From: Escherichia phage vB_EcoM-813R1
Sequence record: ON470617.2
Length of the DNA stretch: 64,000 bases
Strand: one strand, 5' to 3'
This document shows positions 7,192 to 42,611 of this stretch, piece by piece. The notes below the pieces were generated by a model. The model searched no databases. It saw nothing but the letters and a program-made list of their open reading frames with translations, and was not told the origin of the DNA. Numbering within the stretch: the stretch's first letter is position 1; each line of letters opens with the position of its first letter. The translations under genes and the position numbers were made by a program.

Positions 7192-8007
7192 ATGAGCAAA
7201 AACTTTTTTCAATCCGGGGCATTTTTGGGGAATGGACTGTCCCGTTTCGCTTTGAACTCTGATCCTGTGCAGCTGATGGAGTCTGCCCGAGCAAGCGCCG
7301 AACCGCCAACAGATCCGGTTATTAATAATAATCCGGAACCGGCGGCACAGACTAACGATAACGTTCCATCTGCCCCGGCTCCAGAGCAAATCCTGGAAGG
7401 GAAAGACGGTAAAGAATGGACCGTCGAACAGGCGCACCAGATGATTCTGGAAGCTGCAAATCGAAGTGCTATGCAGAATGCGTTGAGTGATGCGGCCGAC
7501 GCCGTTTTCTCCTGGGCTGATAGCGGTGATCTGACTTTCGACTCCCTTGATGGTTTCGTTCAGGCTATCGCTGGTATCTCTGATGACGACGACTCCGAAG
7601 TTACAGAAGAACAGGACGATGCCTATAACGAAGCATGGGCAAATGTTGCTGACTTCCTCGCAGCATGCGGTGTAGATGATGACCTGATCGAAGCACTGGC
7701 TGACGATGAAGACGACGACGCTGCTGCTGATGTTGGTGCCTCTATCGCTGGTTTAGATAGCGACGACCGCGACGAACTGGAAGCGGCGTTTGTTGTTGCT
7801 GGCACTTCTGATGAAATGCTGACTGAAGCATTTAAGAAGGTTGTTCGTAACGGTGAGATCAAACTCATCCGTAAACGCCTGCGTAAAAAACGTCTGACTG
7901 CGGCTCAAAAATCGGCGCTGAAAAAAGCGCGTCGAAAAGCCCAGACCGGCGCGGCAAAACTTGCCCGCAAAAAGTCAATGAAACTGCGCCGTAAGCGCCT
8001 TGGCTAA
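7192..8007 (+). CDS. Virion-associated protein with highly acidic central region and lysine/arginine-rich C-terminal tail (P1 gene 21 position)
   Basis: 271-aa ORF tightly coupled to the upstream gene; D/E-rich stretch (DDDDSEVTEEQDD, ADDEDDDAAAD) and C-terminal KLIRKRLRKKRL...KLRRKRLG; followed by hairpin at 8014-8031. Confidence 0.35.
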   Translation: MSKNFFQSGAFLGNGLSRFALNSDPVQLMESARASAEPPTDPVINNNPEPAAQTNDNVPSAPAPEQILEGKDGKEWTVEQAHQMILEAANRSAMQNALSDAADAVFSWADSGDLTFDSLDGFVQAIAGISDDDDSEVTEEQDDAYNEAWANVADFLAACGVDDDLIEALADDEDDDAAADVGASIAGLDSDDRDELEAAFVVAGTSDEMLTEAFKKVVRNGEIKLIRKRLRKKRLTAAQKSALKKARRKAQTGAAKLARKKSMKLRRKRLG

Positions 8008-8157
8008 GGAGGAGGCCGGAGAACTCCGGCCTTTAACTTGAATGGCACCTATACCTTATGGGGTTTACAGCCAGGCTGACGGTGTATCGCCATTTCTGAA
8101 AGTTACTTTAACGAACTCTCAGTACCAGGTTACCGGATATATCAGCCAGGGGCAGCA

Positions 8158-8621
8158 ATGAACATGGCCCAGAATTGGGAAGCGCCGTTTACCGGTATGT
8201 CCATGGGGTCTGTTGCTGGTGCTTTCAGTGGTTTTGCGCAGGTTGGTACTGAAACAACGTCGGTGGCCCGTTGGAACAGCTTAATGGTTTGGGAGGGGGA
8301 ACACCGCCGACTTTCACGCTGCCAGTAACTTTCATCGCTTTGTTTGACCCATTCACGGAGGTTTCAGGAGCTATCGCCGCATTGTCAGCGATGATTAGCC
8401 CGGAACTTAAAGATGCCAGTATTGGTGGTCGAATCCCGGAGCGTGTGACGCTAAACATTGGTCGCCGGATCAACATCATTGATGTCGCTATCCAGGACAT
8501 AAGTTTCGATCTCGATGCACCCAGGGACAGCAATGGGCATTTCCTGAAAAACACCGTCAACCTCCAGTTGACCGGTTCTTCGATATATAACAGCTCCGAT
8601 ATTGTTCGGGCGTTCCAGTAA
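8158..8621 (+). CDS. Small tail/baseplate morphogenesis protein, frameshifted at a G-run near 8290
   Basis: ORF starting ATGAACATGGCC at 8158 in frame 1 runs into the frame-3 ORF 8271-8621 across tgggagggggaac. A further 38-codon ORF at 8043-8159 may be its N-terminus. Confidence 0.35.
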
Positions 8622-8632
8622 AAGGATTTTAT

Positions 8633-9141
8633 ATGGGGCACAATAACACTAAGGGAAACCGTAAATTTATTAAGGGCCGCTATACTGCCAACGCGGCCAA
8701 AGGCGAACGACTGGTATCTTCTGAATTCCAGCTCACTTTTGCAGGCCATGAAGATATCAGCGTACTGGTTCGCACGTCGCAAATTCCTGAAATGACCCGC
8801 GAGGATGTGGAGGACTATGGTCCGAATGGTGTGAAGTTCAACCAGCACGGTCCAATCCGTAACTCCGGGGAAATCAGGTCCAGTGCGTGGAGACTATCGA
8901 AGGCGATATTCTTCAGTTCATTAAAGATCGCATTGCGGCGAAGGACTATGTTGATATCACGATGGCTGCGACCCCTGAATCCAAATCTTCCGGGGTTAAC
9001 GCTGTGACAAAAGCTGCTACAACAATTGAAATGTTGGACTGCAAAATCTACAGTGATGCAATCGACTTTAGTACCGAAGATGTGACTGCCGCTGTGCGTC
9101 CGTCACTTCGTATCGTTTACAACTGGATTGAGTGGGATTAA
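8633..9141 (+). CDS. Small tail/baseplate morphogenesis protein, frameshifted near 8870
   Basis: ORFs 8633-9007 and 8887-9141 join through ccgggg at about 8873, giving one roughly 169-aa product; rho-independent terminator follows. Confidence 0.35.
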
Positions 9142-9160
9142 GAGTCACCCCTTGTATTTT

Positions 9161-9184
9161 AAAGCTCCTACGGGAGCTTTTTTG
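9161..9184 (+). terminator. Rho-independent terminator closing the head/tail operon
   Basis: aaAGCTCCtacgGGAGCTtttttg: GC stem followed by a T-run. Confidence 0.6.
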
Positions 9185-9224
9185 TGCTTAAATTATGCCG
9201 GTATAGCGAAATTTTGAGCATATT

Positions 9225-9521
9225 ATGGAAATTGATTTTTCATACTCTCCTGAAACGATAGAACGAAGATTCGAAATAATTGGATGTAAAACTATTTCAG
9301 AGGAGCATTATTGGATTCTCTATGATGCCAATACATGGTTATGTGCCTTAGCAGAATGTCGGCCATCGTTATGTGCAGGGGAGGGAGGACTTCGACATAA
9401 GGTGCTGGCTACACTTGAAGTGAACACGTTACGATATTGGTGTGTCGAAATACTTAGGGATAACAAAGAATTACATTTATTATTGCTGAATAAGTGTGCG
9501 CCTCTGCGCAGGAAAGCATAA
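9225..9521 (+). CDS. Hypothetical 98-aa Cys/Trp-containing protein
   Basis: Isolated ORF in the variable region between the structural operon and the DUF3800-like module; no recognisable motif. Confidence 0.3.
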   Translation: MEIDFSYSPETIERRFEIIGCKTISEEHYWILYDANTWLCALAECRPSLCAGEGGLRHKVLATLEVNTLRYWCVEILRDNKELHLLLLNKCAPLRRKA

Positions 9522-9687
9522 GAAAACCCAACCGCCATACTGGAATTATCAGAAGAATATGTGCGGAAAGTTATAGCTAGCTATTGAAAAGCTAAAGTAG
9601 ATCGGTTAGATTTACCTTACTCATCTACCATGCGTAGAAAGAGCGATCGAACCCGATACATAGCAATATGTGTCGGGTTCAGCTTTT

Positions 9688-10167
9688 TTATGTCCCAAGT
9701 GCTCTTTTTCTGCTTTGTTTGAGTGTTCTGATTTTACTGTCATAGGTTACAACATAGGCTGTTTTGAGAAGCCAATAGTCTCTACGTGCGGATAGCACAA
9801 CAACGTAGTTTTCACACTCGTTCCAGATTACCCACTCTTCAGTTGGTCCTCGTCTTTCAGACCAACATGATATATCGCAATGGTCATAATTCCTTATCAT
9901 ATGCGCGATCCAGCGGATCCGCTTACACCGTTCAAGATCAGGTATTCGTTCTTCTTCTATTTTTCCCTCTGATACTAAATGCCAAAATCCGAACTCTTTC
10001 CCATCATATTCCGGTGAATAACGTAATCGAACAGGGAGACCCTTAAACGTTATATTAGAGATTAAAATATCTTCTCTAACAACATCATATACATCGTCTA
10101 TATACTCTTGCCAACTTCCATTGAAGTACAATAAATCTGGCATTTGAAGCATCAGCGAGCCTCCCAC
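9688..10167 (-). CDS. Hypothetical 159-aa protein, downstream partner of the DUF3800-like gene (candidate accessory/defence module)
   Basis: ORF directly downstream of and overlapping the DUF3800-like gene on the same strand; AT-rich; Trp/Cys-rich with no motif I can assign. Confidence 0.4.
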   Translation of the reverse strand: MGGSLMLQMPDLLYFNGSWQEYIDDVYDVVREDILISNITFKGLPVRLRYSPEYDGKEFGFWHLVSEGKIEEERIPDLERCKRIRWIAHMIRNYDHCDISCWSERRGPTEEWVIWNECENYVVVLSARRDYWLLKTAYVVTYDSKIRTLKQSRKRALGT

Positions 10168-10854
10168 ACGAAAATATTAAATTTACTTTCTGTTGGAAGA
10201 GTGCTTTTTAGTAACTCCCTGTTTGTATGTGATTTTATCCTGTTTATGACTTGGATTTTTCCCGCGTTGCTATTCATTCCTCGATGAACGTAGCCTAACG
10301 CACCAATGAAAAGATCCGTTAGCTGCAATTGTTGCACTTCATGAGATCGTATATGTTGAATTCTGTTTATCGACTCATGATTGTAATCATAGCGATCATT
10401 GTGAAGAACTCCTCTTAATTTCTCAATTTTTTCAATACCTAAAGTATCTTTTATATCTAGGTAGATATTGTATGTGTTGTTACTTTCTATTATGTTTTTT
10501 AAGACATAAAAAACATCTTATAATAGAAAGTATTGTGATCTTGATGGAATCGAGCATGGTCCAGTTGCTCTTTATCAGGAACAACAACACCTCTAAAGCG
10601 CAATGCTGGGTTGCTGAAGAAGTAATCTACGACCTCTAAGTAAAATTCAACTTTGGACGCAGATACTTTAGTCCACTTGATTTCGAAATCAGGTTTTAAA
10701 TTGTGTTTTAATTTTAATCCCTTGATGTCTCTAGCAATTTTTTTGTGATAGTGCCAGGACACCAAAGCGCACCCAATACCATGACTTTATTATGATCATT
10801 TAGTAGGTGACAGGATTCATCGCAGAATACATTAAATGTTCTTCGGTTCAACAT
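10152..10854 (-). CDS. DUF3800-like protein (N-terminal FCDES motif, C-terminal QLTDLFIGA motif); apparently frameshifted at a T7 run near 10740 and again near 10490
   Basis: Minus-strand start (+10852-10854) gives MLNRRTFNVFCDESCHL...; joins ORF 10499-10765 through a 7-nt homopolymer; downstream piece contains QLQLTDLFIGALGYVH. About 233 aa in total; strongly AT-rich. Confidence 0.45.
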
Positions 10855-11002
10855 GTTAACTCCACTTATTGTTAGGTAGAATTGTCCGTTAGTTGTTTAT
10901 TAATTGCAATAATGGGACGTTCTGATTTGCTAACTACGTCATCTTACCAGGACGCCTATGAGTTTTCCTCATGGCAAACTAGAGGTGTTGAAAGTATGCA
11001 TG

Positions 11003-11865
11003 GTTATAATTAGAGCAATCTATCACCCTCTGAATCCTACCGGTATACCCCATTGTTCGTTATCTTTATTTTTGGCTAATACCGCATTAAGTGCTTCGTT
11101 TACCGTCATGCAATGCGGTAGATTATCGAAGTTTGATATCCAGCCAATATCAGGAGAACGCTTGTTCTTCAGGTAAGCATATTTCCGCGCTGCCGCCTCT
11201 ACTTTCTGCTTGAACTCATGTTTTTGAGCGCGTTTTTGGATAACCGCAGATTGTCAGCCTTTGCTTTTGCCTCAGCGATCCATGAAGTCAGTTTTTTGAG
11301 GCTGGTCGTTCCGGTACCGCCGGAAACTGATCTTTTTGTTTTTTAATTTGTGACTTCTTATTCTTTATTGCCACGTCATCCTGACAGGGGAGGGGGTATC
11401 ATTTTGACATGGGGGTGTGGATAAAAAATCAAATAAAGCCAATGTCTTAGCGAGAACAGCTTTAACCTTGGTTGCGGCTGAAGAGATCTTTAATTTGCTT
11501 TCAATCAGCGCGTTTTTAGCGTGTTGTGCGAAGGCCAAAAAGGATGGTGTAAACCGGTACAGGTTAGCGCGGCGTTCACGGTGATCGCCGATAACAATCT
11601 CTACAGACAGAATTCCTTTGTTTACAGCTTCACGGAATGCACGAACGACGGTTGATTGGCTATAACCAGTTTCTGCCGCGATCAGGCGGTGAGGCTTGTG
11701 AATGAAGTATTCACTGGTTGTTGCCGCGAGATTTGCACATTGCGACAGGATATGCCCGGCGCTACGGGATAAACCGGAGTGTGTTACAAAGCAGGCCAAT
11801 TCATAGCCAGAAAAAGTAAAATCGCTCATCGTTATACAGCTCAGGAAAGTGACTTTAGCCAGCAT
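11003..11865 (-). CDS. repL: RepL-like lytic replication protein (HTH), apparently frameshifted near 11210 and 11350
   Basis: 166-aa ORF (11365-11865) with HTH GYSQSTVVRAFREAVNKGIL directly downstream of kilA; protein-like reading frames continue on the minus strand to about 11003, giving about 280 aa as expected for RepL. Confidence 0.45.
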
Positions 11866-11894
11866 TACAATGCTGGTGGTTCTTACTACGTCTG

Positions 11895-12695
11895 TTAGCG
11901 CGTTGCTGCGACAGGTACCAGCACACCAGCATCAAGCAATCGCTTCATCAGCCACTGCTGACCTTTGCCGGTTATACGAGTCGTGAAAGAAATCCTGCTT
12001 CCATTGCTTGTATCGATCACGGTTTCTTTAAGGGTGAAATACCCACGGGATATGTATTCTTGTTTGGGGACGTTCCTGCGTTCACCGGTTGCGATCAGAA
12101 TTCCGTTATCACGCAACCAGGTGAAGAGATAGTTTTGGCCCAGGCCGAGCACTTTGGCATAGTTGCCGATTAGAACCCCGCTGGCGGTAGCAACGCGTTC
12201 GGCGAATTCGACTTTAGGTGCATCCATAAGCATTTTTTGCTCCAGCCGTTGCTTTTGCTCTGCCAGGTCGGCAGCCAAACGGAGAGCTTCAGGGAGACTC
12301 TGCGGAATAGCAGGTTGTAATCTTCCGGCTCGATAGTCGATAAATGTCTGGTTTACCTTCAGCCGAAACGCGGGAGAAATCCAGCCTGCGTACTCCACAG
12401 CGAGCAATTCATGGGCAAAAGTGCCGCCGCCACGGCCTTCGAACGAAACTATGCAATTCTGCATAGTTTCTTTTTCAAGCTCTTCGATGAGCTGTTTGGC
12501 TGACAGCGTTCTTAGCCATTGAGCTGGCGCTTTATGGGCACCGAGTCCGCTCGCTCTGTGTAGAGCATTAAGGTTGTAACGGCCAGCGCGGTCGGTCGTA
12601 ATTTCAACACCACAAATAACAGGCAGAGTGGTTGAAGGATCGACATTTTGATGAAGGTTTGATATATTCATATCCGCATTGAATGTTTGTTGCAT
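11895..12695 (-). CDS. kilA: KilA (KilA-N/Bro-N type N-terminal domain plus KilA-C/Ant C-terminal domain)
   Basis: 266-aa ORF; C-terminal about 130 aa is a close paralogue of the Ant C-terminus (LPEALRLAAxLAEQK...TGKGQQWL); a C1 operator lies just upstream and repL downstream. Confidence 0.65.
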   Translation of the reverse strand: MQQTFNADMNISNLHQNVDPSTTLPVICGVEITTDRAGRYNLNALHRASGLGAHKAPAQWLRTLSAKQLIEELEKETMQNCIVSFEGRGGGTFAHELLAVEYAGWISPAFRLKVNQTFIDYRAGRLQPAIPQSLPEALRLAADLAEQKQRLEQKMLMDAPKVEFAERVATASGVLIGNYAKVLGLGQNYLFTWLRDNGILIATGERRNVPKQEYISRGYFTLKETVIDTSNGSRISFTTRITGKGQQWLMKRLLDAGVLVPVAATR

Positions 12696-12764
12696 TTTTT
12701 CTCCAAATTTGCATCAACCTTCAATCACCAGCTCGAAATGGTGATTCTTTGCACTTAGAAAACG

Positions 12765-12781
12765 AAATTTATTAGAGCAAA
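12765..12781 (-). promoter_or_regulatory. C1 repressor operator (16/17 match to ATTGCTCTAATAAATTT) upstream of kilA-repL
   Basis: Top strand aaatttattagagcaaa; located 70 bp upstream of the kilA start. Confidence 0.65.
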
Positions 12782-12859
12782 TTTTTCTGACTCGATCCAG
12801 ATCGGGTTGGACGATCTGCTCAGAAACCTGCCAGTTTGCTGGCAGGTTTTTTTCTTTTG

Positions 12860-13903
12860 TTAACCTATTGCTACTGGTTTTAACAAACCAGCATCAAGTA
12901 GCTTGCGAGTTAACCACTGCTGGCCTTTACCCGTTAATTGGGGCGTCAGCCGTATCTGGTAGCCATTTTCATCATCCAGCACCACTTCTTTCACCGTGAA
13001 ATACCCGGCGTTGATGTACTGTTGGCGCGGTACGTTTTTGCGCGCACCAAAAGCCATGAGAATGCCGTTCTGGCGCAACCATGAGAAAAGGGCGTTTTGC
13101 TTAAGTCCAACGACCTTTGCAAAGTTCCCGATCAGGATTCCATTGGCCGCTGATACCCGGTCGGCAAAATCGACTTTAGGGGCTGCGGCCACCAGCTGCT
13201 GTTCCAACTGCATTTTCTGTTCTGCCAACTCGGCAGCCAGGCGTAGAGCTTCTGGTAATGTTTGGGGGATCGATGGGGCAGGGGAGTTTGCCTGCTGCAA
13301 TTCTTCCAGTTTGTCGATCAGCGAACGGCGGACCGCTTTTGACTCACGCGCGGCGACTCGCAAGGCTTGTTTGTAGGTCATGGTGATGACCTCAAAAGAG
13401 CGCCCAGCCCTTGTGCCATGGGATTTTGCACTTTTTGTGTAAAATTCACCTTCAAGTTCATCGAGTATTTTTTCGATGAATTTATTGTTTCTAACCTCTG
13501 GTTCTCCACATAACTTGCGTGCCTCATTGACCATCTTCAACAATGTTTGGCTGTCGATTGTGTCTCCGGTGTTGGGGATGACATTCACGGCTGGTGTTGG
13601 CGTAGCTGACGTAACAGGTGCTGGTTTCTCAACATTCAAATTTTTACCGGTCACTCTATGTGCCTCCTTTCTCATTTCTGCTGCCACTGTTGCGTAACGT
13701 AGACGTCCTTGTTCAATCAAATAATCCCTGATCTCGGCTATCAGTAGCCTGTTGATCACAGCCTTATCTGTTCGGGTATAAAAACGTCTGGTTATCATGA
13801 AATAGTTAGCAATTGCGCCGGGGATCTCCCGTGTCGGCATACAGGCAGTATGCAAGGCGATCGCTTCGGCTATTTCATTACGGGTGACGAGAGGTGTTTT
13901 CAT
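12860..13903 (-). CDS. ant1: Antirepressor Ant (immI region)
   Basis: ORF 12860-14005; likely start MKTPLVTRNEIAE at 13903, immediately after the icd stop (translational coupling); C-terminal KilA-C/Ant domain shared with KilA. Confidence 0.6.
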   Translation of the reverse strand: MKTPLVTRNEIAEAIALHTACMPTREIPGAIANYFMITRRFYTRTDKAVINRLLIAEIRDYLIEQGRLRYATVAAEMRKEAHRVTGKNLNVEKPAPVTSATPTPAVNVIPNTGDTIDSQTLLKMVNEARKLCGEPEVRNNKFIEKILDELEGEFYTKSAKSHGTRAGRSFEVITMTYKQALRVAARESKAVRRSLIDKLEELQQANSPAPSIPQTLPEALRLAAELAEQKMQLEQQLVAAAPKVDFADRVSAANGILIGNFAKVVGLKQNALFSWLRQNGILMAFGARKNVPRQQYINAGYFTVKEVVLDDENGYQIRLTPQLTGKGQQWLTRKLLDAGLLKPVAIG

Positions 13904-14118
13904 AACCCCCTGAACGTCGGCAGAGAAGGGGAGGCTCCAGTAACTAAGTGAATTGCGCGAGTTAGTTGAAAAACGGGCAGTAAAAATGCAGGGGCCATCA
14001 GGCAATTGAGAGCGTGCTTCGTCTTCTGTTGCTGCGATAACGAAGTGATAGTGGTGTTTTTACAGGAATAGAAACGCCAGATGAATTCTTGGCGTGCGCA
14101 AGGATTGGCATTAACCAT
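13900..14118 (-). CDS. icd: Icd-like small protein (interference with cell division), translationally coupled to ant
   Basis: About 72-codon reading frame starting MVNANPCARQEF... and ending on the codon adjacent to the ant start; position between the c4-like RNA region and ant. Confidence 0.5.
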   Translation of the reverse strand: MVNANPCARQEFIWRFYSCKNTTITSLSQQQKTKHALNCLMAPAFLLPVFQLTRAIHLVTGASPSLPTFRGL

Positions 14119-14365: not shown

Positions 14366-14433
14366 ACTATAAGCCTGAACGATTAAAAGGTCAATATGAT
14401 GCGAAAAGATAGCATTCGCGACTTAAAAATACA

Positions 14434-14450
14434 AATTTATTAGAGCATTA
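14434..14450 (-). promoter_or_regulatory. C1 operator (16/17) with overlapping second degenerate copy, at the immI promoter
   Basis: Top strand aaatttattagagcatt followed by atttgtgcaataaatgcac. Confidence 0.6.
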
Positions 14451-42594: not shown

Positions 42595-42611
42595 AAATTA
42601 ATTAGAGCAAT
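42595..42611 (-). promoter_or_regulatory. C1 operator (16/17) in the ssb/lyz divergent promoter region
   Basis: Top strand aaattaattagagcaat, 20 bp upstream of the ssb start. Confidence 0.6.

What the first reader, a model, noticed from the sequence alone, without database searches (positions are those of the whole stretch)
9225..10854. AT-rich DUF3800-like gene with a downstream partner in the variable region next to the lytic replicon
Between the structural operon terminator (9184) and repL lies a strongly AT-rich minus-strand unit: a gene with the DUF3800 hallmark FCDES near its N-terminus and a QLTDLFIGAL motif further on, followed by an overlapping 159-aa Trp/Cys-rich partner (9688-10167), plus a divergent 98-aa ORF (9225-9521). 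DUF3800-family proteins recur in defence islands and prophage hotspots, and a two-gene AT-rich module beside a phage replicon is the typical footprint of an abortive-infection or exclusion cassette. I cannot tell from memory whether this corresponds to the P1 rlfA/rlfB genes that occupy this position in the reference, so it may be backbone rather than cargo.
Basis: partly seen in the sequence, partly recalled or inferred. Interest (0 to 1): 0.6.

Follow-up and report, generated by a model that had tools for sequence, protein, structure and literature searches.

The report
P1 rlfA-rlfB two-gene cargo cassette
This stretch is the already catalogued rlfA-rlfB-pmgF cassette of a P1-like phage-plasmid, whose apparent frameshifts are sequencing errors; the rlfA-rlfB pair is a widespread two-nuclease-like module listed as an untested anti-phage defence candidate, so it is ordinary as a sequence but still has no known function.

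Summary
An AT-rich (37.6% GC) 1.8-kb block at 9184-11008 carries a DUF3800 gene (10152-10854, minus), an overlapping 154-aa partner (9688-10152, minus) and a 98-aa ORF (9225-9521, plus).

These are P1 rlfA, rlfB and pmgF. After restoring two single-base homopolymer deletions in rlfA, all three proteins are 100% identical to phage JL22 and 232/234, 152/154 and 92/98 identical to P1. The same error type breaks essential neighbouring genes, so the frameshifts are assembly artefacts.

RlfA and RlfB match PADLOC's untested candidate system PDC-M04 (E 2e-95 and 3.5e-51). The pair is obligate: RlfB followed RlfA in 79 of 80 genomes across more than 10 phyla. About a third of these loci sit between hsdS and hsdR of type I restriction operons; others lie at prophage ends.

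In P1-like plasmids the cassette is swappable cargo. Only 98 of 654 carry it, and most others carry hokD in the same slot.

The best reading is an RNA-targeting toxin/regulator (abortive-infection or exclusion) module, not a replication function. This is untested. The object is already known, and interest is modest.

The parts
9161..9183 (+). Terminator hairpin and T-run after bplB. It is the last backbone sequence shared by all P1-like elements, and the left border of the variable cassette lies at 9183/9184.
   Evidence: Terminator scan. Alignment of the window, P1 and three hokD-type or other P1-like phages shows identity up to GCTTTTTT and divergence after it.
9184..11008 (.). Swappable low-GC accessory cassette of 1825 bp (37.6% GC measured over 9187-11008) carrying pmgF, rlfB, rlfA and the rlfA leader.
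   Evidence: GC profile. Phage and plasmid records that match only the flanks (query 1-84 and 1910-2301) define the borders. The literature lists rlfA-rlfB-pmgF as variable region 5 of P1-like phage-plasmids (PMC9603915).
9225..9521 (+). pmgF, 98 aa, function unknown. It is convergent with rlfB and is not part of the rlfAB module.
   Evidence: 100% identical to JL22 PmgF and 92/98 to P1. PHROG 7349; no Pfam or PADLOC hit. Classed non-essential in P1. No homologue next to the pair outside P1-like elements.
9649..9680 (.). Hairpin with a 14-bp stem between the convergent pmgF and rlfB genes; a likely shared terminator.
   Evidence: Terminator scan gives a T-run on the plus strand. The rlfB stop codon is at 9688-9690.
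9688..10152 (-). rlfB (P7 rapB; PADLOC PDC-M04B). Intact, 154 aa, predicted RelE/colicin-D-like (BECR) fold with an N-terminal helix.
10152..10854 (-). rlfA (P7 rapA; PADLOC PDC-M04A), a DUF3800 predicted RNase H-fold nuclease of 234 aa. In this assembly it is broken by two artefactual 1-nt homopolymer deletions (after 10507 and 10737).
   Evidence: The repaired protein is 100% identical to JL22 and 232/234 to P1. PF12686 E 7.6e-14. PDC-M04A E 2.2e-95. Invariant residues D12 E13 S14 C15 H16 E58 K60 W61 D134 K136 D137 D181. The RNase H fold comes from the literature.
10881..10909 (-). Predicted sigma-70 promoter PrlfA (TTGCAA, 17-nt spacer, GACAAT), transferred from the P1 annotation.
   Evidence: P1 RefSeq annotation, mapped to the window with a fixed coordinate offset anchored on the rlfA start codon. 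The sequence is read. The simple promoter scan did not report it, so it remains a prediction only.
11003..11019 (-). C1 repressor operator Orlf (formerly Op55), ATTGCTCTAATTATAAC, immediately after the repL stop codon. The right border of the cassette falls inside it, after ATTGCTCTAAT.
   Evidence: P1 and P7 annotations. Sequence. hokD-type elements share ...GGGTGATAGATTGCTCTAAT and diverge from the next base. The site has 5 mismatches to the 17-mer consensus, so the 3-mismatch search did not find it.

Best explanation
The region is the rlfA-rlfB-pmgF accessory cassette of a P1-like phage-plasmid. rlfA and rlfB form one obligate, translationally coupled module, equivalent to PADLOC candidate PDC-M04. 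RlfA is a DUF3800 enzyme, predicted to be an RNase H-fold, metal-dependent nuclease with the DE...D...QxxD motifs. RlfB is a small protein whose core resembles the BECR/RelE-colicin D fold of metal-independent RNase toxins.

The most likely function is a toxin/regulator-type abortive-infection or exclusion module, TA-like, that attacks RNA (tRNA or mRNA) when triggered. In bacterial chromosomes it often sits inside type I restriction operons, in the position occupied by PrrC. In P1 it rides as exchangeable cargo in a slot behind the C1 operator downstream of repL, the same slot that holds the Hok toxin gene hokD in most relatives.

**Shown here:** gene identity; that the frameshifts are artefacts; the domain and HMM assignments; the obligate pairing; the genomic contexts; the cassette borders.

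**Inferred:** the RNase activity of RlfB; which partner is the toxin (weak hints point to RlfB); the trigger; and the anti-phage outcome itself.
For: - **Identity.** The region is 99.4% identical to JL22 and 96.2% to P1 at the DNA level. The proteins are 100% and 99% identical after repair.
- **HMM matches.** PADLOC hits are PDC-M04A at 2.2e-95 and PDC-M04B at 3.5e-51. PDC systems were defined by embedding in BREX, DISARM or type I R-M loci.
- **Independent reproduction of the pairing.** RlfA relatives of 49-74% identity occur in more than 10 phyla. An RlfB-like ORF follows directly on the same strand in 79 of 80 loci; the 80th is cut by a contig end. In the reciprocal test, 28 of 31 viral loci chosen by RlfB have a full-length RlfA upstream.
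- **Neighbours.** Of 122 upstream proteins (positions -1/-2), 23-25 are type I S subunits and 12-23 are type I methylases. Of 140 downstream proteins (+1/+2), 11 are type I R subunits and 4 are type III R subunits, with GmrSD, YhcG and NYN also present.
- **Individual loci.** Methylomonas has hsdS-rlfA-rlfB-hsdR. Algoriphagus has hsdMS-RT-rlfA-rlfB-hsdR-x-pAgo. In Enterobacter and E. coli the pair lies next to an integrase at a mobile-element end. In Serratia it is a lambdoid moron.
- **DUF3800 elsewhere.** The domain is linked to retron type VII, Cas12a2/a3 and type VI-F loci.
- **Slot logic.** Most P1-like plasmids carry hokD at exactly this site.
- **Which partner is lost.** rlfB has a nonsense codon at invariant W57 in Methylomonas and is truncated next to IS600 in pAUSMDU00014361_02. 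rlfA is intact in both.
Against: - No experiment exists. PDC-M04 is one of 145 untested candidates, and no paper links rlfAB to a phenotype.
- In P1 the cassette follows an annotated C1 operator and is induced with repL during lytic growth. Expression in the lysogen, which a classical prophage defence needs, is not shown.
- RlfA was not modelled here; its RNase H fold is taken from the literature.
- RlfA is much more conserved than RlfB and does not look like a typical antitoxin: no DNA-binding domain was detected.
- The two cases of rlfB loss are anecdotes.
Confidence: 0.55

Rival explanations
1. Lytic-replication helper, the historical reading behind the names 'replication-linked function' and 'replication-associated protein'. 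In this view the RNase H-like RlfA processes R-loops or RNA primers at oriL and RlfB assists it.
For: The genes lie directly downstream of repL/oriL, behind a C1 operator. They are co-induced with repL early in P1vir infection. An RNase H-type fold suits primer or R-loop processing.
Against: rlfA, rlfB and pmgF are classed non-essential in the P1 CRISPRi screen. About 85% of P1-like plasmids with the same repL lack the cassette. Expression of repL alone drives replication of reporter plasmids (abstract of PMC9948254). The pair occurs in contexts unrelated to replication, inside type I R-M operons and at prophage ends, across many phyla. There is no Pfam RNase H hit.
Confidence: 0.1
2. Offensive lytic-phase function. 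The pair is expressed after C1 is lost and degrades host or competitor RNA or DNA. It would serve host shut-off, nucleotide scavenging, counter-defence, or exclusion of co-infecting phages only during P1's own lytic cycle.
For: The C1 operator sits at the cassette border and the genes are induced in the lytic cycle. The pair is common on viral contigs, with 31 IMG/VR loci of which 17 are not P1-like. Both proteins have nuclease-like folds.
Against: Roughly a third of chromosomal homologues are co-oriented inside host type I R-M operons, with no phage nearby. That placement is expected for host defence and not for phage attack genes. The genes are non-essential for plaque formation, which is only weak evidence.
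Confidence: 0.17
3. Pure plasmid-addiction module (post-segregational killing) that stabilises the P1 plasmid prophage and other mobile elements, with no anti-phage role.
For: The layout is bicistronic and overlapping, as in type II TA operons. RlfB has a toxin-like fold. The alternative cargo at the same slot is hokD. The pair sits on integrative elements and prophages.
Against: P1 already carries phd-doc (established knowledge). The strong embedding within R-M operons argues for a defence link. The upstream partner is a 234-aa conserved enzyme, not a labile DNA-binding antitoxin.
Confidence: 0.1
4. Decaying pseudogene remnant: the frameshifts in rlfA are real and the module is dead in this element.
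For: rlfA is read as three ORF fragments in the window as given.
Against: The only differences from plasmid pEC-16-35-3 over 2.7 kb are five 1-nt homopolymer deletions, with no substitutions. The same kind of deletion splits the essential genes pmgG and bplB and also repL. This is typical of uncorrected long-read assembly.
Confidence: 0.02

Closest known systems
Bacteriophage P1 rlfA / rlfB / pmgF (P7 rapA / rapB / upf52.1); JL22 gp047-049
   Same: Same genes in the same position between repL and bplB. Protein identity is 99% to P1 and 100% to JL22, with the same C1 operator and terminators.
   Different: Only sequencing-type homopolymer deletions and a few substitutions differ. The function of the reference genes is itself unknown; the annotation reads 'possibly associated with lytic replication'.
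PADLOC phage defence candidate PDC-M04 (cassette CAS_00034; Payne et al. 2024 bioRxiv, guilt-by-embedding)
   Same: Both proteins match the A and B models strongly, and the gene order and overlap are the same.
   Different: PDC-M04 was defined from copies embedded in R-M, BREX or DISARM loci and has not been tested. The P1 copy is free-standing on a phage-plasmid behind a repressor operator.
PrrC / EcoprrI (anticodon nuclease held latent inside a type I R-M locus)
   Same: The position is the same in about a third of homologous loci: between hsdS and hsdR, on the same strand. An RNase-type effector is predicted in both.
   Different: There is no ABC-ATPase domain and no sequence or fold similarity to PrrC. 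This module has two proteins rather than one. The P1 copy is not linked to R-M genes. The PrrC biology cited here is established knowledge and was not tested.
Type II toxin-antitoxin modules of the RelE/ParE (BECR) superfamily, and BECR effectors in defence operons (HEC-07, PtuZ)
   Same: The small downstream protein has a BECR-like core, and the two genes overlap in a bicistronic layout.
Other DUF3800 contexts: retron type VII, TPR-DUF3800 next to Cas12a2/Cas12a3 and type VI-F, and the DUF3800-I to -XI RNA motifs
   Same: The same Pfam domain, with the N-terminal DE and C-terminal QxxD motifs, and the same association with defence and RNA biology.
   Different: The RlfA clade has a protein partner (RlfB). 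It has no RT, TPR or Cas neighbour as a rule, and no Rfam DUF3800 motif was found in the window or in 8 related loci.

Membership tests
P1 rlfA/rlfB/pmgF locus | Full-length near-identity to P1 RlfA, RlfB and PmgF, and synteny repL - rlfA - rlfB - pmgF - bplB | tested here: met
   232/234, 152/154 and 92/98 identical to P1, and 100% identical to JL22 after repair. Synteny confirmed.
Pfam DUF3800 (PF12686) | HMM score above the gathering threshold | tested here: met
   53.1 bits against a cut-off of 21, E 7.6e-14, covering profile positions 1-148 of 149.
Pfam DUF3800 (PF12686) | N-terminal DE motif and C-terminal QxxD motif | tested here: met
   D12-E13 (FCDES) and Q178-L-T-D181. D12, E13 and D181 are invariant and Q178 is nearly invariant in 26 homologues. 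The motif definition comes from PMC7736814.
Pfam DUF3800 (PF12686) | RNase H-like fold and nuclease activity | not tested
The fold is taken from the literature. A profile of RlfA homologues finds no solved structure by sequence. Activity has never been assayed.
PADLOC PDC-M04 | Both the A and B proteins match the models and are adjacent on the same strand | tested here: met
   A at 2.2e-95 and B at 3.5e-51. The genes overlap by 1 nt.
PADLOC PDC-M04 / anti-phage defence system | Protection against phage infection shown experimentally | not testable with these tools
   The source lists it among 145 untested candidates. A full-text search for 'PDC-M04' returns no papers.
BECR / RelE-ParE toxin superfamily (RlfB) | Structural similarity of the core fold | tested here: inconclusive
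BECR / RelE-ParE toxin superfamily (RlfB) | Sequence-profile membership in a Pfam BECR family, or similarity to RelE or YoeB | tested here: not met
   No Pfam hit at E<=1. hhalign against RelE and YoeB gives a probability below 1%. No significant PDB sequence hit.
Type II toxin-antitoxin module | A small, labile DNA-binding antitoxin encoded upstream of the toxin | tested here: not met
   The upstream gene encodes a 234-aa conserved DUF3800 enzyme, and Pfam detects no HTH, RHH or AbrB domain.
PrrC-like R-M-linked anticodon nuclease | Embedded between type I hsd genes | tested here: not met
   Not met for the window copy, which lies between repL and bplB. Met for about a third of homologous loci.
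PrrC-like R-M-linked anticodon nuclease | N-terminal ABC-ATPase domain and C-terminal anticodon-nuclease domain | tested here: not met
   Neither protein has an ATPase or PrrC family hit in Pfam or PADLOC.
DUF3800-associated structured RNAs (Rfam DUF3800-I to XI, drum, skipping-rope) | A covariance-model hit next to the DUF3800 gene | tested here: not met
   None at E<=10 in window 8900-11500. None at the gathering threshold in 8 related loci.

The most novel reading that the evidence does not exclude
RlfAB (PDC-M04) is a genuine and mechanistically new two-component immunity module. It would couple a DUF3800 RNase H-fold enzyme to a divergent BECR-fold RNase. In bacterial chromosomes it would act as a PrrC-style back-up embedded in type I restriction operons. 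In the model phage P1 it would be wired to the C1 repressor, so that it fires on induction or infection to shut out competing phages. This would make P1 a ready genetic system for working out what DUF3800 nucleases do. That answer would also bear on their roles beside retrons, Cas12a2/a3 and Cas13.
Probability: 0.3. Interest if true: 0.6.

Novelty: already known. Interest (0 to 1): 0.33.

Why it matters
If rlfAB turns out to be an active defence or exclusion module, one of the oldest 'unknown function' gene pairs of phage P1 would gain a role. The name 'replication-linked function' would be shown to be a misnomer of position.

The large DUF3800 family would also get its first tractable experimental model. 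This family is seen next to retrons, Cas12a2/a3, type VI-F CRISPR loci and eleven orphan RNA motifs.

On the practical side, the work shows three things. The frameshifts in this window are assembly errors and should not be read as gene decay. The site between repL and bplB is a defined cargo slot in P1-like phage-plasmids. That slot alternates between rlfAB-pmgF and hokD.

Tried and rejected
- **Single-sequence AlphaFold of RlfB.** It gave pLDDT 44 and was unusable, so the model was redone with a 113-sequence alignment.
- **Foldseek of the RlfB model.** Against the PDB there was no hit below E 0.06. Against BFVD it found only one uncharacterised homologue. The afdb50 library was not available.
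- **Sequence-profile searches of solved structures.** Nothing significant for RlfB or RlfA.
- **NCBIfam.** No hits for any of the three proteins.
- **Rfam.** No DUF3800-associated RNA motifs near rlfA in the window or in 8 related loci.
- **Literature.** The P1 genome paper (PMC523184) and one 2026 preprint that mentions DUF3800 are not held. A search for 'PDC-M04' returned no papers.
- **pmgF as a third component.** Rejected, because no PmgF relative lies next to the pair outside P1-like elements.
- **Pseudogene reading of the frameshifts.** Rejected.
- **Asymmetric decay of the two partners.** A systematic test was not possible. Loci picked by RlfA similarity are biased towards intact RlfA. 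The reciprocal viral set showed no clear asymmetry. Only two anecdotal rlfB losses were found.
Full report
**1. What is in the sequence**

A low-GC block lies between the terminator after bplB (hairpin 9161-9180) and the end of repL. On the minus strand it holds a gene read as three fragments (10714-10854, 10499-10765, 10152-10337) and an ORF at 9688-10167. On the plus strand it holds a 98-aa ORF at 9225-9521.

The cassette is 37.6% GC, against 50.6% to its left and 46.7% to its right.

**2. Identity**

Megablast against phage genomes shows the stretch 9100-11400 is 99.4% identical to Escherichia phage JL22, 97.1% to P7 and 96.2% to P1 over its full length. In those records the genes are annotated as follows:
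- rlfA ('DUF3800 domain-containing protein'; rapA in P7);
- rlfB (rapB in P7);
- pmgF;
- a C1 repressor operator, Orlf (formerly Op55), just downstream of the repL stop.

**3. The frameshifts are artefacts**

I aligned window 7600-12900 with P1, P7 and JL22. All nine internal gaps shared against the three references are deletions of one base in the window, mostly in homopolymer runs. Two fall in rlfA: A7->A6 at 10507 and T8->T7 at 10737. Three fall in repL. Others split pmgG and bplB, which are essential in the P1 CRISPRi screen.

Over 8900-11600 the window differs from E. coli plasmid pEC-16-35-3 (NZ_CP093228.1, IncY) only by five such deletions and by no substitution.

Restoring the two bases in rlfA gives a 234-aa protein identical to JL22 RlfA and 232/234 identical to P1 RlfA. 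RlfB (154 aa from the ATG at 10152) and PmgF are intact and identical to JL22. The pseudogene reading is rejected.

**4. Gene layout**

- rlfA ends in TGA, which overlaps the rlfB ATG by one base (TGATG), and a GGGAGG lies upstream. This arrangement suggests translational coupling.
The two share a hairpin with a 14-bp stem at 9649-9680.
- The operator ATTGCTCTAATTATAAC lies at 11003-11019, about 150 nt upstream of the rlfA start.

**5. Family assignments**

- **RlfA:** Pfam DUF3800, E 7.6e-14, 53 bits against a cut-off of 21.
- **RlfB and PmgF:** no Pfam or NCBIfam family.
- **PHROGs:** places them in families 3732, 16230 and 7349. The only 'replication protein' label there is inherited from the P1 name.
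- **PADLOC-DB v2:** RlfA matches PDC-M04A (E 2.2e-95) and RlfB matches PDC-M04B (E 3.5e-51).

PDC systems come from Payne et al. (bioRxiv 10.1101/2024.01.29.577857). That study collected gene cassettes embedded inside BREX, DISARM and type I R-M loci and released 145 untested candidates. PDC-M04 is cassette CAS_00034 in its supplement. A full-text search for 'PDC-M04' finds no paper.

**6. What the literature says about the genes and the domain**

- rlfA, rlfB and pmgF are 'possibly associated with lytic replication' or 'putative morphogenetic', and are classed non-essential in the P1 CRISPRi screen (PMC10695390).
- They form variable, low-GC 'region 5' of P1-like phage-plasmids (PMC9603915).
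- Other ORFs replace them in pSvP1 and pTZ20_1P (PMC6906374).
- They are induced together with repL in P1vir infection (bioRxiv 10.64898/2025.12.28.696737).
- DUF3800 is described as an RNase H-fold nuclease with an N-terminal DE motif and a C-terminal QxxD motif. It is found fused or adjacent to retron type VII reverse transcriptases, next to Cas12a2/Cas12a3 and in type VI-F loci, and beside eleven unrelated structured-RNA motifs.
- RlfA has both motifs, and D12, E13, D134, D137 and D181 are invariant in 26 diverse homologues.

**7. The pair is obligate and widely mobile**

RlfA has thousands of relatives. A scan of one genome per species returned at least 564 loci. The best 80 are 49-74% identical to RlfA. 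They come from Nitrospirota, Bacteroidota, Desulfobacterota, Chloroflexota, Cyanobacteria, Gammaproteobacteria, Actinomycetota, Gemmatimonadota, Lentisphaerota and other phyla.

With HMMs built from my alignments, an RlfB-like ORF lies directly downstream on the same strand, usually overlapping, in 79 of 80 loci. The one exception ends at a contig edge.

In the reverse test, 31 IMG/VR viral contigs were picked by RlfB similarity. Of these, 28 have a full-length RlfA upstream, two are cut by contig ends, and one encodes a fused RlfA(N-half)-RlfB ORF.

RlfB is the faster-evolving partner. It is 33-45% identical among distant members, against 52-66% for RlfA. An exhaustive HMMER search counts 1,855 RlfB clusters at 50% identity with E<=1e-3.

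**8. Genomic context**

Individual loci:
- **Methylomonas:** hsdM-hsdS-rlfA-rlfB-hsdR.
- **Algoriphagus:** hsdMS-reverse transcriptase-rlfA-rlfB-hsdR-x-Piwi/pAgo, on an integrative element.
- **Enterobacter:** the pair lies between a prophage integrase and a tRNA cluster.
- **E. coli:** the pair is next to the integrase of a mobilisable island that also carries a NACHT gene.
- **Serratia:** an oppositely oriented moron inside a lambdoid prophage.

I then scanned the two nearest ORFs on each side of the pair in the 80 genomic loci.
- **Upstream (122 proteins):** Pfam finds 23 Methylase_S and 12 N6_Mtase/HsdM_N, plus Eco57I, MmeI and AbiEii-type AAA_21. PADLOC finds 25 type I specificity subunits and 23 type I methylases.
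- **Downstream (140 proteins):** Pfam finds 14 ResIII, 13 SWI2_SNF2 and 11 HSDR_N, plus GmrSD, YhcG and NYN. PADLOC finds 11 type I and 4 type III restriction enzymes.

So about a third of the loci sit between hsdS and hsdR. This reproduces independently the evidence on which PDC-M04 was proposed. From established knowledge, it is also the position occupied by the anticodon nuclease PrrC.

**9. Structure of RlfB**

A single-sequence model failed, with pLDDT 44. With 113 homologues the model reached pLDDT 91.5 and pTM 0.87. It has an N-terminal helix, then a short strand, small helices, a four-stranded antiparallel sheet and a C-terminal helix.

Several other methods give no support:
- Foldseek;
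- Pfam;
- a PDB sequence-profile search;
- hhalign against RelE and YoeB.

I therefore treat the BECR fold as a moderate, fold-level lead and not as family membership. The invariant residues (F56 W57 H58, R69, R75, W81, W97, with E62, D72, R78, R101, R123 and Y133 nearly invariant) are of the kind used by metal-independent RNases. I could not map them onto the active-site cleft.

BECR domains are already known as effectors in defence operons, for example HEC-07 in Payne et al. and PtuZ in PMC11980606.

**10. The cassette as cargo in P1-like elements**

Among PLSDB plasmids, 654 records match some part of the query, but only 98 hold at least 80% of it. Most of the remaining records listed match only the flanks and carry hokD instead. 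A few carry other ORFs (phage examples).

The borders are sharp. On the left, identity ends after the bplB terminator T-run (9183/9184). On the right, identity resumes at ...ATTGCTCTAAT, which lies inside the C1 operator, at 11009.

The slot therefore lies directly downstream of the conserved half of a C1 operator. It alternates between rlfAB-pmgF and a Hok-family toxin locus.

pmgF has no relative next to the pair outside P1-like elements. A distant PmgF-like ORF occupies the same side of another cassette variant. pmgF is therefore an independent passenger.

**11. Interpretation**

The best-supported reading is that rlfAB is a self-contained, horizontally mobile two-protein module of the toxin/regulator (abortive-infection or exclusion) type that acts on RNA. 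Six lines of evidence support it:
- the obligate pairing;
- the extreme phyletic spread at high identity;
- the location in defence islands and at mobile-element ends;
- two nuclease-like folds;
- the other defence contexts of DUF3800;
- the Hok toxin alternative at the same P1 slot.

Which partner is the toxin is open. Two anecdotes point to RlfB: a nonsense codon at invariant W57 in Methylomonas, and a truncation next to IS600 in an E. coli plasmid, both with rlfA intact. However, DUF3800 is the presumed effector in retron type VII.

The historical 'replication-linked' reading is weak for three reasons:
- the genes are non-essential;
- about 85% of relatives that share repL lack them;
- repL alone drives replication of reporter plasmids.

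The main caveat for a classical prophage defence is the C1 operator together with lytic-phase induction. This keeps open a lytic-phase role, such as exclusion of competitors, host shut-off or counter-defence. None of these functions has been tested experimentally.

**12. Verdict**

- **The object is already known.** It corresponds to P1 rlfA/rlfB/pmgF and PADLOC PDC-M04.
- **This analysis adds four points.** The frameshifts are artefacts. P1 rlfAB and PDC-M04 are explicitly equated. RlfB gets a BECR-like fold prediction. The cargo slot is defined to the base, with its border inside the C1 operator.
- **Interest is modest.** The hypothesis is cheap to test in a model phage, but no new kind of element has been found.

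Noticed in passing
window 7600-12900 (8005, 8151, 8293, 8874, 10507, 10737, 11232, 11338, 11386): Systematic single-base deletions, mostly in homopolymer runs, relative to P1, P7, JL22 and pEC-16-35-3. They split the essential genes pmgG and bplB as well as repL and rlfA. The pattern is typical of an unpolished long-read assembly, so ORF fragmentation elsewhere in this window should be read the same way.
   Followed up: yes
window 11003-11019 and 9183/9184: The right border of the variable cassette falls inside the C1 operator Op55, after ATTGCTCTAAT. hokD-type P1-like elements keep that half-operator and diverge from the next base. Whatever cargo sits in this slot therefore lies just downstream of a conserved C1 half-site. 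Whether C1 still binds the hybrid operators is unknown.
   Followed up: partly
L006 10699-11166 and L007 (Methylomonas sp. 11b); L127 2447-2713 (pAUSMDU00014361_02): rlfB carries a single nonsense codon at the invariant Trp of the FWH motif in Methylomonas. In an E. coli P1-like plasmid it is truncated beside an IS600 copy. rlfA is intact in both. This is a possible hint that RlfB is the toxic partner.
   Followed up: partly
L124 5695-6555 (IMG/VR contig 3300004628_000350): A single 287-aa ORF matches the N-terminal half of RlfA (profile positions 1-114) followed by nearly all of RlfB (18-156). It is either a deletion-derived fusion or a natural fused variant.
   Followed up: no
L008 / L020 (Algoriphagus pacificus, 4177-17617 of L008): A dense defence island on an integrative element: an HsdM-S fusion, a reverse transcriptase (RVT_1), the rlfA-rlfB pair, HsdR, an unknown 325-aa gene and a Piwi-domain pAgo. 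The reverse transcriptase directly upstream of the DUF3800 gene recalls retron type VII.
   Followed up: no
window 12765-12781, 14433-14449, 42595-42611, 62472-62488, 62555-62571 and others: Eight matches to the 17-bp C1 operator consensus with at most 3 mismatches, against 0.3 expected by chance. This fits a complete P1-type immunity regulon in the window. The Op55 site itself is more degenerate (5 mismatches) and was not among them.
   Followed up: no
window 11895-12695 and 12860-14005 (minus strand): Two KilA/antirepressor-type ORFs (kilA and ant1/ant2 by synteny with P1) share a similar C-terminal half (PQSLPEALRLAA...GKGQQWL...).
   Followed up: no
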